Shown: positions 16,560-58,960 of the stretch, piece by piece | How the letters are laid out: each line of letters opens with the position of its first letter | Numbering within the stretch: position 1 is the stretch's first letter | Assembly (NCBI RefSeq): GCF_009914755.1 | Contig: NC_060945.1 | Strand: one strand, 5' to 3' | Source of the DNA: the human T2T-CHM13v2.0 reference genome, Homo sapiens | DNA length: 64,000 bases | Notes under the pieces: generated by a model | The model's database searches: none | The model's input: the letters and a program-made list of their open reading frames with translations, nothing else | Told to the model about the DNA's origin: nothing | Made by a program: the position numbers and the translations under genes

Positions 16560-18780
16560 ATCTGTTGTAATGTATTATTTAAAATGTCCAGTTTTCAACA
16601 AAAACAAGGTAAGACATTCAAAGAAACAAAAGAGTGTCACATACACAAGGAGCAGAGAGGCAATAGACTGGCTTTGAGGGCACCCAGGTGCTGATCTTAG
16701 CAGACAAACTTCAACCAGCCCTTATCAATATGTTCCCATCACTAAAAGAAACTATATTTAAAGAAATAAAAGATGGGGCCGGGCGCAGTGTCTCACGCCT
16801 GTAATCCCTGCACTTTGGGAGGCCAAGGCGGGTGGATCACCTGAGGTCAGGAGTTCGACACCAGCCTGGCCAACATGATGAAACCCCCGTCTCTACTAAA
16901 AATACAAAAATTAGCCGGGGAGGCTGAGGCAAGAGAATCTCTTGAACCTGGGAGGCAGAGGTTGCAGTGAGCCGAGATCGCACCCCTGCATTCCAGCCTG
17001 GGCAACAAGAGCGAAACTCCTGTCTCAAAAATAAAAATAAATAAAAGATAATATGATGACAGTGTCTCACCAAATAATACCAATAGGTATTTTTAAAAGA
17101 AACCAAATAGAGATATAGACGTTAAAAAGCACAGTAAGAGAAATCAAAACTTCAATAGAGTTGAGACCCTCTAGTGAAGTTTTTATTTCAGTTATTGTAG
17201 ATTTGAGGCGGTAGAAGAATCAGCAAACTTGTAGATTAATAGAAATTATGTAATCTGAAAAAAAAAAATTGATGAACAGAGCCTCAGAAATGCAGGACCG
17301 CCAAGTGCCACAGCACACACAGCAGCAGGACCACAGGAGAAAAAATACTCAAAAAACTCATGGCCAAAAACTTGCCAGCTTTGAGTTTATCTTCCTTGGA
17401 GTGTGTAGAGTTTCTTAGATGTGTACACTGATCAAAAACTGCACACATCTAAGCAACTCCACACCCTCCCCCAAACACAGCTGAAATGATGAAACTCAAA
17501 ATGTTGAAAGAGAAAACTTCAAAGCAGCCAGAGAAGGACTCATCACATACAAGAGAACCCCAGGAAGATTAAGATTTTTTTTAAACCTGATTCAGATTTT
17601 TTTTTTGACTTCTCATCAGAAAAAAAAAAAAATACACTGAAGGCAGGGATGAGATACTCAAAACGCTGAAAGAAAAAAGCCAAGAGCCCTTCTTAAGTTG
17701 AGGTGAAATTCACATAACCTTTTTTTTTTTTTTTTTTTTTAAGACAGTCTTTGTCACGCAGTCTGGAGTGAGGTGGTGTGATCTCGGCTCATTGCAACCT
17801 CCACCTCCTGGGTTGTTCAAGCAATTCTTGTGGCTTGGCCTCCCAAGAAGCTGGGATTGCAGGCATGCGCCACTACGCCCAGCTAATTTTTGTATTTTTA
17901 GTGGGGACAGGGTTTTGCCATGTTGGCCAAGGCTGGACTCGAACTCCTGGCCTCAAGTGATCTGCCCACCTCGGCCTCCCAAAGTGCTGGGGTTACAGGC
18001 GTGAGCTGCTGTGCCGAGTGGCATAATCATTGTTTAAAGTGTACAGTTCAGTGGCATTTAGTGTTGGGAAAAGGGCTTGTGGAATGCCTGTATAAACTGG
18101 CCATGAAAATATGGGACAATAAGTTGTGGAAAGCCACAAGAGGCCTCTGAGGAGGAAAGCCTCCTAATCGCCATCATGTTCGCATGCTCAGAGTGAGACC
18201 CGCTCTTATCTGTAAACACTGTGTTCAAGGAGAAGGACACTCCTTTGAAGCACTGGACTGTGGACAGACACACGAGCTCCTGGTTAAGCCCGCTCCCACC
18301 AGCTCCTGTCCGATAAGTTAAAGATACGCTGTTTGAGCACAAAGGAGATTCATTGAAACCGGTATTGCTGTAGATTACGCCTATGACGCACTGCCTCCCT
18401 TTCACTGTTTCGCCCTGAACATCTGCTTCTCAGATCTAAGTGACTGTACTCAATAAATAGCGTGGAGACCAGAGCTCAGTGCCTTTTGCAGCCTCCATTT
18501 TGCCACTGGCCCCCTGGCTCCTACCTTTATGAACTCTTAACCTGTCTCTTCTCATTCCTTTGTTGCCACCGAACTTCGGGTACGCTGTGGGTGGTGTTGA
18601 GGCTGGTCTCCAACATTTAGTGTATTGACAATGTTGTGAGACCACACCTCCATCTACTGCAGGCATTTCATCACCCCAAGAGAAGGCCCGCACTCGCTGA
18701 GCAGTCAGCCCCGCTCCCCTCCGTGCCAGCACCTGGCAGCCAGCACTTTGTGTTTCTAGATATTTCATAAGTGTGGACTC
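16560..18780. mobile_element. Old L1M fragments interrupted by Alus and the LTR
   Basis: A-rich degenerate L1-like sequence (CAAAGCAGCCAGAGAA, GACTTCTCATCAGAAA) and a reverse 3'-end motif (AAAGTGTACAGTTCAGTGGCATTTAGT). Confidence 0.6.
18062..18615 (+). mobile_element. Solo ERV LTR, LTR14-like (HERV-K HML-10/HERVK-C4), copy 1
   Basis: TGTTGG...CCAACA inverted termini, 554 bp, 5-bp TSD TTTAG, AATAAA at 18452; sits in an old L1 fragment; family name from memory. Confidence 0.85.
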
Positions 18781-57990: not shown

Positions 57991-58960
57991 TGTTGGGAAA
58001 AGGGCTTGTGGAATGCCTGTATAAACTGGCCATGAAAATATGGGACAATAAGTTGTGGAAAGCCACAAGAGGCCTCTGAGGAGGAAAGCCTCCTAATTGC
58101 CATCATGTTCGCATGCTCAGGGCGAGACCTGCTGTCTTATCTGTAAACACCGTGTTCAAGGAGAAAGACATTCCTTCGAAGCACTGGACTGTGGACAGAC
58201 ACACGAGCTCCTGGTTAAGCCCGCTCCCACCAGCTCCTGTCCGATAAGTTAAAGATACGCTGTTTGAGCACAAAGGAGATTCATTGAAACCGCTATTGCT
58301 GTAGATTACGCCTGTGACGCACTGCCTCCCTTTCACTGTTTCGCCCTGAATATCTGCTTCTCAGATCTAAGTGACTGTACTCAATAAATAGCGTGGAGAC
58401 CAGAGCTCAGTGCCTTTTGCAGCCTCCATTTTGCCACTGGCCCCCTGGCTCCTACCTTTATGAACTCTTTTCTTTTTCTTTTTTTTTTTTTTTGGAGACG
58501 GAGTCTCACTCTGTTGCCCAGGCTGGAGTGCAGTGGCGCGATCTCCACTCACTGCAAGCTCCACCCCCTGGGTTCATGCCATTCTCCTGCCTTAGCCTCC
58601 CAAGTAGCTGGGACTACAGGCACCCGCAACCACGCCCGGCTAATTTTTTTGTATTTTTAGTAGGGACGGGGTTTCACAGTGTTCACCAGGTTGGTCTCGA
58701 TCTCCTGACCTCACACACCACGCCCAGCTAATTTTTGTATTTTTTAGTAGAGATGAGGTTTTGCCACGTTGGCCAGGCTGGTCTCGAACTCCCGACCTCA
58801 GGTGATCTGCCTGCCTGAGCCTCCCAAACTGCTGGGATTACAGGCGTGAGCCACCGCACCCGGCCCCACCTTTATGAACTCTTAACCTGTCTCTTCTCAT
58901 TCCTTTGTCACTACCGGACGTTGGATACACCATGGGTGGTGTTGAGGCTGGTCCCCAACA
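57991..58960 (+). mobile_element. Solo ERV LTR, LTR14-like, copy 2, interrupted by an Alu
   Basis: TGTTGGG...CCCAACA termini, 5-bp TSD CTAAT, AATAAA at 58383; near-identical to 18062-18615. Confidence 0.85.
58469..58865 (-). mobile_element. Composite Alu with a duplicated left-arm segment, inside LTR copy 2
   Basis: poly-T head; flanking direct repeat (ct/cc)ACCTTTATGAACTCTT; left-arm sequence occurs twice. Confidence 0.9.

What the first reader, a model, noticed from the sequence alone, without database searches (positions are those of the whole stretch)
18062..58960. Twin solo LTRs 40 kb apart show a gene-conversion signature that stops near an Alu, and bracket the PDXK promoter and exons 1-2
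The copies at 18062-18615 (TSD TTTAG, in L1) and 57991-58960 (TSD CTAAT, in THE1) are independent insertions. Upstream of the Alu in copy 2 I count 11 substitutions and one 2-nt indel in ~477 bp (~97.5%), with three identical runs over 100 bp and many shared intact CpGs. Downstream of the Alu I count 11 mismatches in ~77 bp (~86%), many at decayed CpGs. The left copy of the Alu TSD reads cTacc like LTR copy 1 while the right reads cCacc, as expected if the left side was overwritten after the Alu landed (the TSD boundary is ambiguous). Inference: recurrent ectopic conversion, meaning the two sites pair in the germline. A crossover in the same tract would delete or duplicate ~39.9 kb including the PDXK promoter and exons 1-2. 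Biallelic PDXK deficiency is an established, PLP-responsive neuropathy with optic atrophy, so this would be an easily missed null allele.
Basis: partly seen in the sequence, partly recalled or inferred. Interest (0 to 1): 0.8.

Follow-up and report, generated by a model that had tools for sequence, protein, structure and literature searches.

The report
Two old retroviral LTRs homogenised near PDXK
Two roughly 35-million-year-old retrovirus remnants lying 40 kb apart around the start of the PDXK gene have copied sequence from one to the other long after they inserted, a known kind of event that shows the two sites can pair but not that they ever delete the gene.

Summary
Both elements are solo LTR14 long terminal repeats of HERV-K(HML-10), the HERV-K(C4) family. 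They are already catalogued as HML-10 elements 59 and 60 with the same target-site duplications (PMC5142424). The family is about 35 My old in print, and my consensus-free estimate is about 29-30 My.

The 5' 477 bp of the pair is 97.5% identical. That is rank 1 of 1326 LTR14 pairs. The next pair, 94.7%, is the two LTRs of one provirus, and the family median is 87.4%. The 3' 77 bp is 85.7% identical, rank 1100 of 1485.

The pair shares 17 rare variants in the 5' segment and none in the 3' segment. In 340 columns it has 0 mismatches, where five proviral LTR pairs have 18-23. This indicates post-insertion non-allelic gene conversion, probably within the last 3-9 My.

The conversion is mosaic, with an unconverted island at columns 108-185. 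It ends at or near the nested Alu. One Alu target-duplication base suggests transfer from copy 1 to copy 2 after the Alu landed.

The deletion/duplication geometry is correct. No such allele was seen or could be looked for here.

The parts
18057..18061 (.). left target-site duplication of copy 1 (TTTAG); its right twin is at 18616-18620
   Evidence: read; the same TSD is given for HML-10 element 59 in PMC5142424 Table 1
18062..18615 (+). solo LTR14 (HERV-K HML-10) copy 1, 554 bp, intergenic between RRP1B and PDXK. TATAAA at 18091-18096, GTGGAAAG at 18126-18133, AATAAA at 18452-18457
   Evidence: The motif positions 30-35 and 65-72 equal those given for the LTR14 reference in PMC5667498
57986..57990 (.). 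left target-site duplication of copy 2 (CTAAT); its right twin is at 58961-58965
   Evidence: read; the same TSD is given for HML-10 element 60 in PMC5142424 Table 1
57991..58469 (+). solo LTR14 copy 2, 5' piece (columns 1-477), in PDXK intron 2, sense to PDXK. TATAAA at 58020-58025, AATAAA at 58383-58388
   Evidence: 97% identical to copy 1 in the genome search
58470..58865 (-). nested Alu-like insert, 396 bp, composite. It splits near 58713/58716. The poly-T tail abuts the left duplication
   Evidence: Named 'AluSx; AluY' in PMC5142424 Table 1
58452..58469 (.). left copy of the Alu target duplication; the right copy is at 58866-58883. The duplication is 16 bp perfect, or 18 bp with one difference at column 461 (58453 T against 58867 C)
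58884..58960 (+). solo LTR14 copy 2, 3' piece (columns 478-554), at family-background divergence from copy 1
18062..18168 (+). homogenised tract A (columns 1-107); partner at 57991-58097. 0 mismatches against 8.9 expected at family level
18169..18246 (+). unconverted island (columns 108-185); partner at 58098-58177. 9 mismatches against 8.6 expected; holds the 2-nt indel
18247..18361 (+). homogenised tract B (columns 186-300); partner at 58178-58292. 0 mismatches against 13.3 expected; 8-9 shared rare variants
18362..18420 (+). intermediate stretch (columns 301-359); partner at 58293-58351. 3 mismatches against 8.9 expected
18421..18538 (+). homogenised tract C (columns 360-477); partner at 58352-58469. 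0 mismatches against 14.7 expected. Ends at the Alu insertion point and holds column 461
18564..18587 (+). cluster of differences (columns 503-526); partner at 58909-58932. 10 mismatches in 24 columns against 4.6 expected
38671..38923 (+). PDXK exon 1 of NM_003681.5 (coding from 38837), inside the bracketed interval
53612..53666 (+). PDXK exon 2 of NM_003681.5, inside the bracketed interval
18062..57990 (.). the 39,929-bp unit that an unequal crossover between the two direct LTRs would delete or duplicate. This is geometry only; no such allele was observed

Best explanation
Two HERV-K(HML-10) proviruses integrated independently about 30-35 My ago, 40 kb apart and in the same orientation. Each collapsed to a solo LTR14. 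An Alu later landed in copy 2 at column 477/478, cutting the shared homology into 477 bp and 77 bp.

Long afterwards, one or more non-allelic (ectopic, intrachromosomal) gene-conversion events copied stretches of one LTR into the other. These were germline events, since the result is fixed in this haplotype. I estimate they fall within the last 3-9 My.

The overwritten stretches are columns 1-107, 186-300 and 360-477. Columns 108-185 and the 77-bp piece beyond the Alu were left at the family's normal divergence. For the tract next to the Alu, the direction was probably copy 1 to copy 2.

Shown: independence of the insertions, the family, the anomaly of the 5' identity, the shared rare variants, and the normal 3' divergence. 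Inferred: the mechanism (break repair using the paralogue as template), the timing, the direction, and the role of the Alu as the limit of usable homology.
For: - Different matched TSDs and no flank homology.
- Copy 1 as a genome query: copy 2's 5' piece is 97% identical, and the next best of 42 listed matches is 91% (40 of 308 candidates were scored).
- With 56 rows (copy 1, one piece of copy 2, and 54 other LTR14 copies after dropping two exact twins), 5' identity is 465/477. That is rank 1 of 1326 scored pairs. Next is 94.7% for the two LTRs of the 1p36.13 provirus; the median is 87.4%.
- 3' identity is 66/77, rank 1100 of 1485, median 89.5%.
- The result holds without CpG-prone columns: rank 1 of 1326 for the 5' segment and rank 1298 of 1485 for the 3' segment.
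- Observed against family-level expected mismatches: 12 against 54.3 in the 5' segment (Poisson 4.4e-12), and 11 against 11.3 in the 3' segment.
- Mismatch clustering: 0 of 20000 simulations reached the summed three longest mismatch-free runs.
- 17 columns in which both copies carry a base found in under 10% of the others. This is the highest of 741 pairs, ahead of proviral LTR pairs at 11 and 8. The 3' segment has 0.
- With 54 others the count is still 17, and no other copy shares more than 4 of the 20 columns rare at under 0.2. Each copy's rare-variant load (19 and 22) is ordinary for the family (median 17), but the variants are the same ones.
- In the 340 tract columns, five proviral LTR pairs that were identical at integration show 18-23 mismatches. 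This pair shows 0.
- Column 461: copy 1 has T, copy 2 left of the Alu has T, the right-hand Alu duplicate has C, and the others have 36 C and 1 T.
- No third copy resembles copy 2's 3' piece more than 93%. Copy 1 is 24th of 39 non-self matches there.
- Ectopic conversion among human LTRs, commoner between linked copies and with tracts of 14-450 bp, is in print (PMC4921805 passages).
Against: - No other species or other human haplotype could be examined. The expected tree discordance, the date and the donor are therefore untested.
- The tract bounds were set after seeing the mismatches, which flatters the '0 of 340' figure. The less selective count is 3 mismatches in 399 columns.
- The unconverted island inside the 5' segment needs either more than one event or patchy repair.
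- The longest mismatch-free run alone is not extreme: 489 of 20000 simulations reach it.
- The 5'-minus-3' identity gap alone is matched by 77 of 1225 other pairs. 76 of these involve two copies with aberrant 3' ends, and none has 5' identity of 0.95 or more.
- The column-461 argument depends on the Alu duplication being 18 bp rather than 16 bp.
- Only 54 of roughly 75 other family LTRs were compared. PMC5142424 lists 70 elements.
- Columns 503-526 are more divergent than the family level (10 against 4.6), and this is unexplained.
Confidence: 0.85

Rival explanations
1. Sibling insertions. Both LTRs came from the same, already diverged viral genome at about the same time, so they share that genome's variants. 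The divergent island and the 3' end of one copy were later overwritten from a third LTR14 copy or by clustered mutation.
For: LTR pairs from one provirus also share rare variants (11 and 8). Two family members 40 kb apart in the same orientation is itself unusual for a family of 70 elements (PMC5142424).
Against: LTRs that were identical at integration in this family now differ at 18-23 of the same 340 columns where this pair differs at 0. No third copy is close to either divergent block; the best match for copy 2's 3' piece is 93%. This reading still needs ectopic conversion, and it is contradicted by column 461 if the Alu duplication is 18 bp.
Confidence: 0.05
2. Mosaic made before integration. 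Template switching between two co-packaged viral genomes produced a recombinant LTR in one copy, giving alternating like and unlike blocks.
For: The alternation of identical and background-level blocks is the kind of pattern retroviral recombination produces. That is general knowledge, not tested here.
Against: It cannot explain zero divergence in 340 columns after about 30 My. It also cannot explain a difference between the two copies of an Alu target duplication that postdates integration.
Confidence: 0.03
3. Constraint or a low mutation rate. The identical stretches are kept by selection on a regulatory function, or by a locally low mutation rate at both sites.
For: Both copies keep more CpGs in the 5' segment than most of the family: 12 and 13 against a median of 7 and a range of 2-15.
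Against: The identical stretches carry 17 variants that are rare in the family. Constraint would preserve the common state, not one copy's private changes. Those columns vary freely in the other copies, with 8.9, 13.3 and 14.7 mismatches expected. No annotated enhancer or silencer overlaps either copy.
Confidence: 0.03
4. Assembly artefact. Part of one LTR was written over the other during assembly or polishing of this reference.
For: None was found. The possibility exists in principle for near-identical repeats.
Against: The copies sit in unique, different flanks. They keep 12 differences, and one keeps a nested Alu. GRCh38 coordinates in PMC5142424 Table 1 give almost the same lengths, 555 and 971 bp. 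500-bp repeats 40 kb apart are far below the scale at which long-read assemblies collapse, which is general knowledge.
Confidence: 0.02

Closest known systems
HERV-K(HML-10) / HERV-K(C4) solitary LTRs (LTR14), elements 59 and 60 of the published catalogue (PMC5142424)
   Same: Same loci, same TSDs (TTTAG, CTAAT), same nested Alus and same size class. The LTR motifs fall at the positions given for the reference LTR14. The closest genome matches include the LTRs of the proviruses in C4A, C4B, DAP3 and PKIB.
   Different: The catalogue's text says nothing about the two being alike or about conversion: 'gene conversion' occurs 0 times, and 'no. 59', 'no. 60' and '59 and 60' occur 0 times. Its Fig. 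2 tree and its supplements could not be seen. Its table marks element 60 as antisense to PDXK, whereas here both are on the + strand.
Non-allelic (ectopic) gene conversion among human LTRs (PMC4921805, Y-chromosome LTRs)
   Same: Short tracts (14-450 bp there, 107-118 bp here), linked donors favoured, and clustered changes that match a paralogue.
   Different: That study used population resequencing of Y-linked LTRs and does not mention LTR14, HML-10 or chromosome 21 (0 occurrences each). Here the evidence is a within-genome family comparison on an autosome. It has an Alu target duplication as an internal time mark, and most of the usable homology was replaced.
HERV-mediated non-allelic homologous recombination causing deletions and duplications (PMC4195946; AZFa-type events)
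   Same: Directly oriented retroviral repeats on one chromosome flanking a gene-bearing interval.
   Different: That survey required elements of at least 4 kb with at least 2 kb aligned at 94% or more, and it deliberately excluded LTR-only alignments. This pair offers 477 bp with uninterrupted identity of at most 118 bp, and no rearrangement has been seen.
Conversion between the two LTRs of one provirus (the reason given in print why LTR-LTR dating underestimates age)
   Same: Homogenisation of LTR sequence after integration. PMC5667498 notes that LTR-versus-LTR ages are too low (section 8).
   Different: Here the partners are separate integrations 40 kb apart, not the two ends of one element.

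Membership tests
LTR14 solo LTR of HERV-K(HML-10) | TG...CA ends, about 550 bp, flanked by a 5-6 bp target-site duplication | tested here: met
   Copy 1 is 554 bp with TTTAG on both sides. Copy 2 has CTAAT on both sides and measures 479 + 77 bp of LTR, plus a second copy of the Alu duplication, around the Alu.
LTR14 solo LTR of HERV-K(HML-10) | Sequence likeness to the LTRs that flank the prototype provirus in the C4 genes | tested here: met
   Copy 1 matches both LTRs of the proviruses inside C4A and C4B at 87% over 1-554, and those in PKIB. The 3' piece of copy 2 matches those in DAP3. LTR14-HERVKC4-LTR14 is the published HML-10 reference.
LTR14 solo LTR of HERV-K(HML-10) | Published LTR motifs: TATAAA at 30-35, GTGGAAAG at 65-72, AATAAA near 384-389 | tested here: met
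   TATAAA at columns 30-35 and GTGGAAAG at 65-72 in both copies. AATAAA is at columns 391-396 of copy 1.
LTR14 solo LTR of HERV-K(HML-10) | Listed as such in a curated or published catalogue | tested here: met
   PMC5142424 Table 1, elements 59 and 60, 21q22.3.
LTR14 solo LTR of HERV-K(HML-10) | Age: present in Old World monkeys and apes, absent from New World monkeys | not testable with these tools
   No primate genomes are on hand. The print values are about 35 My and 20-40 My. My own estimate is half the median pairwise difference to the other copies (5.9% and 6.1%), divided by the 0.2%/My rate used in print. This gives about 29-30 My.
Non-allelic gene conversion | The partners are paralogues of independent origin, not a duplication | tested here: met
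   Different matched TSDs. Homology starts exactly at the LTR edge, and the flanks are unrelated apart from Alus.
Non-allelic gene conversion | A stretch far more alike than the family's divergence allows, bounded by stretches at normal divergence | tested here: met
   Rank 1 of 1326 for the 5' segment and rank 1100 of 1485 for the 3' segment. Block table and simulation.
Non-allelic gene conversion | Shared derived variants confined to the stretch | tested here: met
   17 shared rare columns in the 5' segment and 0 in the 3' segment. No subfamily carries them.
Non-allelic gene conversion | More alike than sequences of the same family known to have been identical at integration | tested here: met
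   0 mismatches against 18-23 for five proviral LTR pairs in the same 340 columns.
Non-allelic gene conversion | Paralogues group within species and orthologues do not, for the converted stretch only | not testable with these tools
   No non-human primate or second human haplotype is available.
Non-allelic gene conversion | No exchange of flanks (a non-crossover outcome) | tested here: met
   Each copy still has its own matched TSD pair.
NAHR substrate pair (deletion/duplication-prone direct repeats) | Same chromosome, direct orientation, flanking the interval | tested here: met
   Both copies are on the + strand and 39,929 bp apart.
NAHR substrate pair (deletion/duplication-prone direct repeats) | Homology of the length and identity used to predict HERV-mediated NAHR (at least 2 kb at 94% or more in PMC4195946) | tested here: not met
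   477 bp at 97.5%, with the longest uninterrupted identity 118 bp.
NAHR substrate pair (deletion/duplication-prone direct repeats) | Observed reciprocal deletion or duplication with breakpoints in the repeats | not testable with these tools
   No variant databases or reads are available. The 2026 PDXK review has 0 occurrences of 'deletion', 'copy number' or 'structural variant'. A search for PDXK with LTR14, gene conversion or NAHR found no paper on this.
NAHR substrate pair (deletion/duplication-prone direct repeats) | Recombination-hotspot motif in the repeats | tested here: not met
   None of the 27 window matches to the 13-mer CCNCCNTNNCCNC lies in either LTR. The nearest are at 16819 and 60653.

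The most novel reading that the evidence does not exclude
The homogenisation is recent enough (0 differences in 340 columns; upper bound about 4-9 My) to be specific to the human or African-ape lineage. It may still be going on, so that human haplotypes differ in how much of copy 2 is overwritten. The same pairing would occasionally resolve as a crossover, giving a rare 39.9-kb deletion or duplication that removes or doubles the main PDXK promoter and exons 1-2. Exome sequencing would miss such a recessive disease allele.
Probability: 0.12. Interest if true: 0.7.

Novelty: new member of a known kind. Interest (0 to 1): 0.4.

Why it matters
This is a clean, datable example of sequence exchange between two dispersed solo LTRs on an autosome. 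The family comparison shows one copy's private variants pasted into the other. A nested Alu marks both the limit of the exchange and, through one base of its target duplication, the order of events.

It has two practical consequences. First, dating or tree-building with these two LTRs (elements 59 and 60 of the HML-10 catalogue) will mislead unless the converted part is set aside. Second, it shows that two sites bracketing the main promoter and first two exons of a recessive, treatable neuropathy gene have paired in the germline at least once. That justifies one inexpensive look for a 39.9-kb copy-number change in structural-variant resources and in unsolved cases.

It does not show that such an allele exists. 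The homology is well below what published surveys treat as prone to rearrangement.

Tried and rejected
- First block table. I used column numbers from the pairwise alignment, which are shifted by the 2-nt indel, so the blocks were misplaced. It was redone with copy-1 columns, and one search's block rows should be ignored.
- A second example of neighbour conversion. The chr16 pair (L012/L039, in TVP23A) is rank 1 of 1378 in its shared columns. However, the 97% inverted repeat runs 69 bp beyond the LTR end into flank. I rejected it as an inverted segmental duplication.
- The tandem LTR pair on chr1 (L014/L014b) is rank 11 of 1275. It was not pursued.
- Third-party donor. None was found for copy 1 (best other match 91%) or for copy 2's 3' piece (best 93%). 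Only 40 of 308 and 40 of 114 candidates were scored, and closed regions are not shown.
- Hotspot motif. No 13-mer match lies in either LTR.
- Regulatory annotation. No enhancer or silencer overlaps either copy.
- The 5'-minus-3' contrast as a stand-alone statistic is not unique: 77 of 1225 other pairs reach it. The argument rests on the 5' identity and the shared rare variants.
- Consensus-based dating was not done, because the rules bar any consensus. I used pairwise distances and proviral LTR pairs instead.
- Cross-species trees, human pangenome haplotypes and structural-variant tables could not be reached with these tools.
- Supplements are closed. The HML-10 alignments and tree data (PMC5142424, PMC5667498), the HERV-pair table of PMC4195946 and the variant tables of PMC13755911 may bear on these claims and were not seen.
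- Flank repeat names (L1, THE1) and Alu subfamily calls were not tested by me. The Alu names come from PMC5142424's table.
- Rows dropped before counts: L018 and L022, exact twins of L017 and L021 from the C4A/C4B module duplication. Pairs sharing under 80% of a segment's columns were also skipped (214 and 55).
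Full report
**What is there.** Copy 1 occupies window 18062-18615 (554 bp, TG...CA ends) between TTTAG repeats. Copy 2 occupies 57991-58960 between CTAAT repeats and is split by a 396-bp Alu-like insert at 58470-58865. 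The 5' piece of copy 2 aligns to columns 1-477 of copy 1 with 466 identical columns, 11 substitutions and one 2-nt indel. The last 77 columns show 11 mismatches, and the flanks beyond the LTR ends are unrelated. In a +/-5 kb comparison, the only shared sequence apart from Alu-like matches of 67-82% is the LTR, and it begins exactly at its first base.

**Family and age.** A search of the window's own genome with copy 1 listed 42 matches (40 of 308 candidates scored). They include LTR pairs 5-8 kb apart that lie inside C4A, C4B and PKIB. The DAP3 pair came up with the 3' piece of copy 2. These are the named HML-10 proviruses of PMC5142424 (passages). PMC5667498 gives LTR14-HERVKC4-LTR14 as the HML-10 reference, with TATAAA at 30-35 and GTGGAAAG at 65-72 (passages). 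Both copies have these motifs at those columns. PMC5142424 Table 1 lists the two loci as elements 59 (TTTAG, intergenic, RRP1B) and 60 (CTAAT, AluSx; AluY, PDXK intron) among 70 HML-10 elements.

Print dates the family to about 35 My and 20-40 My, with orthologues of most proviruses in rhesus (section 8). Without any consensus, I took half the median pairwise difference of each copy to the others (11.7% and 12.2%). At the 0.2%/My rate used in print, this gives about 29-30 My. So these are ordinary, old members of a catalogued family.

**Is the likeness unusual?** Yes.
- In the genome search, copy 2's 5' piece is 97% identical to copy 1, and the next best copy is 91%.
- I fetched 55 stretches and aligned copy 1, one piece of copy 2 at a time, and 54 other LTR14 copies. 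Two exact twins from the C4 module duplication were dropped.
- In columns 1-477 the pair is 465/477 identical, rank 1 of 1326 scored pairs (214 pairs skipped for low overlap).
- The runner-up, 94.7%, is the two LTRs of one provirus. The median is 87.4%, and each copy's best other partner is 91.8%.
- In columns 478-554 the pair is 66/77 identical, rank 1100 of 1485, with a median of 89.5%.
- An earlier run with 39 other rows gave rank 3 of 820, behind only the two twin pairs, and rank 524 of 820.
- Leaving out CpG-prone columns changes nothing: rank 1 of 1326 and rank 1298 of 1485.

Unrelated copies are not this alike in the 5' part, and the 3' part of this pair is ordinary.

One caution applies. 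The 5'-minus-3' gap by itself is reached by 77 of 1225 other pairs. 76 of these involve two copies with aberrant 3' ends, and none has 5' identity of 0.95 or more. The case rests on the 5' identity, not on the contrast alone.

**Shared history, not conservation.** Against the per-column diversity of 37 other copies, the pair shows 12 mismatches where 54.3 are expected in the 5' segment (Poisson 4.4e-12). It shows 11 where 11.3 are expected in the 3' segment. In 17 columns both copies carry a base found in under 10% of the others. That is the highest count of 741 pairs, ahead of proviral LTR pairs with 11 and 8. The 3' segment has none. With 54 others the count is still 17, and no other copy shares more than 4 of the 20 columns rare at under 0.2, so this is not a subfamily. 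Each copy's load of rare bases (19 and 22) is normal for the family (median 17, range 6-34), but the rare bases are the same ones. That is what pasting one copy's private changes into the other would produce.

**Mosaic structure** (the block rows used shifted bounds and should be ignored).

| Columns | Mismatches observed | Expected at family level |
|---|---|---|
| 1-107 | 0 | 8.9 |
| 108-185 (holds the indel) | 9 | 8.6 |
| 186-300 | 0 | 13.3 |
| 301-359 | 3 | 8.9 |
| 360-477 | 0 | 14.7 |
| 478-502 | 0 | 2.2 (P = 0.083, uninformative) |
| 503-526 | 10 | 4.6 |
| 527-554 | 1 | 4.5 |

Placing the 23 mismatches in proportion to family diversity never reproduced the summed three longest clean runs (0 of 20000 simulations). 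The longest run alone was reached in 489 of 20000. So there are at least three overwritten stretches separated by an untouched island. They could come from several events or from patchy repair of one. 'Recurrent' is possible but not shown.

**Timing.** Five proviral LTR pairs, identical at integration and mostly with rhesus orthologues, differ at 18-23 of the same 340 tract columns where this pair differs at 0. Taking 30 My for those pairs, the 95% upper bound for the tracts is about 4.4 My. The tracts were delimited after the fact, so a fairer count uses all 5' columns except the island. That gives 3 mismatches against 22-29 for the proviral pairs, or about 3.4 My with an upper bound of about 9 My. 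This is inference from an internal clock, and it needs primate orthologues to check.

**The Alu as limit and time mark.** The insert is flanked by a duplication that is either 16 bp perfect or 18 bp with one difference. At that differing column (461), 36 of 37 other copies carry C. The right-hand duplicate in copy 2 carries C, while copy 1 and the left-hand side of copy 2 carry the rare T. The two bases beyond the 16-bp core on the right match the family's usual bases, which favours the 18-bp reading. On that reading copy 2 had C when the Alu landed, and the left side was later overwritten from copy 1.

A tract copied from the Alu-less copy 1 cannot have crossed the junction without removing the Alu. 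This explains why the signature ends there. Beyond the Alu only 77 bp of homology remain.

**Rivals.**
- Sibling insertions, or a pre-integration recombinant, could explain shared variants or a mosaic. They cannot explain zero divergence where true identical-at-birth pairs have about 20 differences, and they cannot explain column 461.
- Constraint would keep common states, not 17 rare ones. No annotated regulatory element overlaps either copy.
- An assembly artefact is unlikely given the unique flanks, the retained differences, and near-equal lengths in GRCh38 (555 and 971 bp).

**The clinical extension.** The geometry holds. Both LTRs are on the + strand and 39,929 bp apart. The interval holds NM_003681.5 exons 1 and 2, and copy 2 lies in intron 2. 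The disease link is in print: PMC6772106 (listing and abstract start) and PMC13140640 (abstract and passages).

Four points weaken the extension.
- No deletion or duplication was seen or could be searched for.
- The 2026 review describes the published variants as missense and has 0 occurrences of 'deletion', 'copy number' or 'structural variant'.
- The published survey of HERV-mediated rearrangement required at least 2 kb at 94% or more and excluded LTR-only pairs. This pair offers 477 bp with at most 118 bp uninterrupted, and no hotspot 13-mer.
- NM_001331030.2 starts at 61093, downstream of copy 2, so a deletion allele need not be null for every isoform.

A literature search for PDXK with LTR14, gene conversion or NAHR found nothing on this pair. 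PMC5142424's text does not mention it, and neither does PMC4921805.

**Verdict.** The finding is a real, well-supported case of non-allelic gene conversion between two catalogued, roughly 30-35-My-old HML-10 solo LTRs. It is a new member of a known kind of event (PMC4921805). It has a tidy internal time mark and a testable but unproven implication for PDXK copy number.

Noticed in passing
window 57647-58404 (AATAAA at 58383-58388): The predicted transcript XM_054324890.1 ends at 58404, 16 nt after the polyadenylation signal of LTR copy 2. The sense-oriented LTR seems to supply the end of a truncated PDXK transcript whose coding part stops at 57747.
   Followed up: partly
window 57991-58960: PMC5142424 Table 1 marks HML-10 element 60 as antisense to PDXK. 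In this window the LTR (TATA box and AATAAA on the + strand) and PDXK are both on the + strand, so the LTR is sense.
   Followed up: partly
window 58470-58865: The nested Alu is 396 bp, longer than one Alu. It matches other Alus of the window in two parts that meet near 58713/58716 and repeat the same Alu region, yet it has a single pair of target duplications. The published table calls it AluSx; AluY. How the composite arose was not worked out.
   Followed up: no
window 18564-18587 and 58909-58932: There are ten differences in 24 columns, against 4.6 expected at family level. Five of them are bases of copy 2 that 0-5% of other copies carry, 29-48 bp beyond the Alu. Only 3 of the 11 3' mismatches are in CpG-prone columns. 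The cause is unknown.
   Followed up: partly
window 62632-63225: A 51-bp minisatellite in PDXK intron 3, with 11.7 copies at 93% identity. Its units give 11 of the window's 27 matches to the hotspot-like 13-mer CCNCCNTNNCCNC (5.3 matches expected by chance). It lies 3.7 kb downstream of copy 2.
   Followed up: no
window 38710-38780: A short GC-rich repeat in the PDXK 5' UTR (6-nt and 23-nt periods, about 2 copies of the longer unit in this assembly). A 2026 pangenome preprint names a GC-rich 23-bp repeat in the PDXK 5' UTR as the most heterozygous such site, with 4-79 copies (PMC13755911, one passage). Whether this is the same array was not settled.
   Followed up: partly
L056 4667-4930 and 7314-7577 (G000 chr16:10.8217-10.8246 Mb, in TVP23A): A partial and a full LTR14 in inverted orientation, 2.4 kb apart, are 97% alike (5 mismatches in 195 columns). 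The likeness runs 69 bp past the LTR end into flank, so this is an inverted segmental duplication and not conversion between separate insertions.
   Followed up: yes
window 18062-18538 and 57991-58469: Both copies keep more CpG dinucleotides in the 5' segment (12 and 13, 10 of them shared) than most of the family (median 7, range 2-15, n = 50). Whether this reflects GC-biased repair, the donor's local methylation state or chance is open.
   Followed up: no
L014 (G000 chr1:212,288,204-212,289,249): Two LTR14 copies lie head to tail with one base between them. They differ at 32 of 488 columns, rank 11 of 1275 pairs. The published table flags a tandemly repeated LTR in the family.
   Followed up: no
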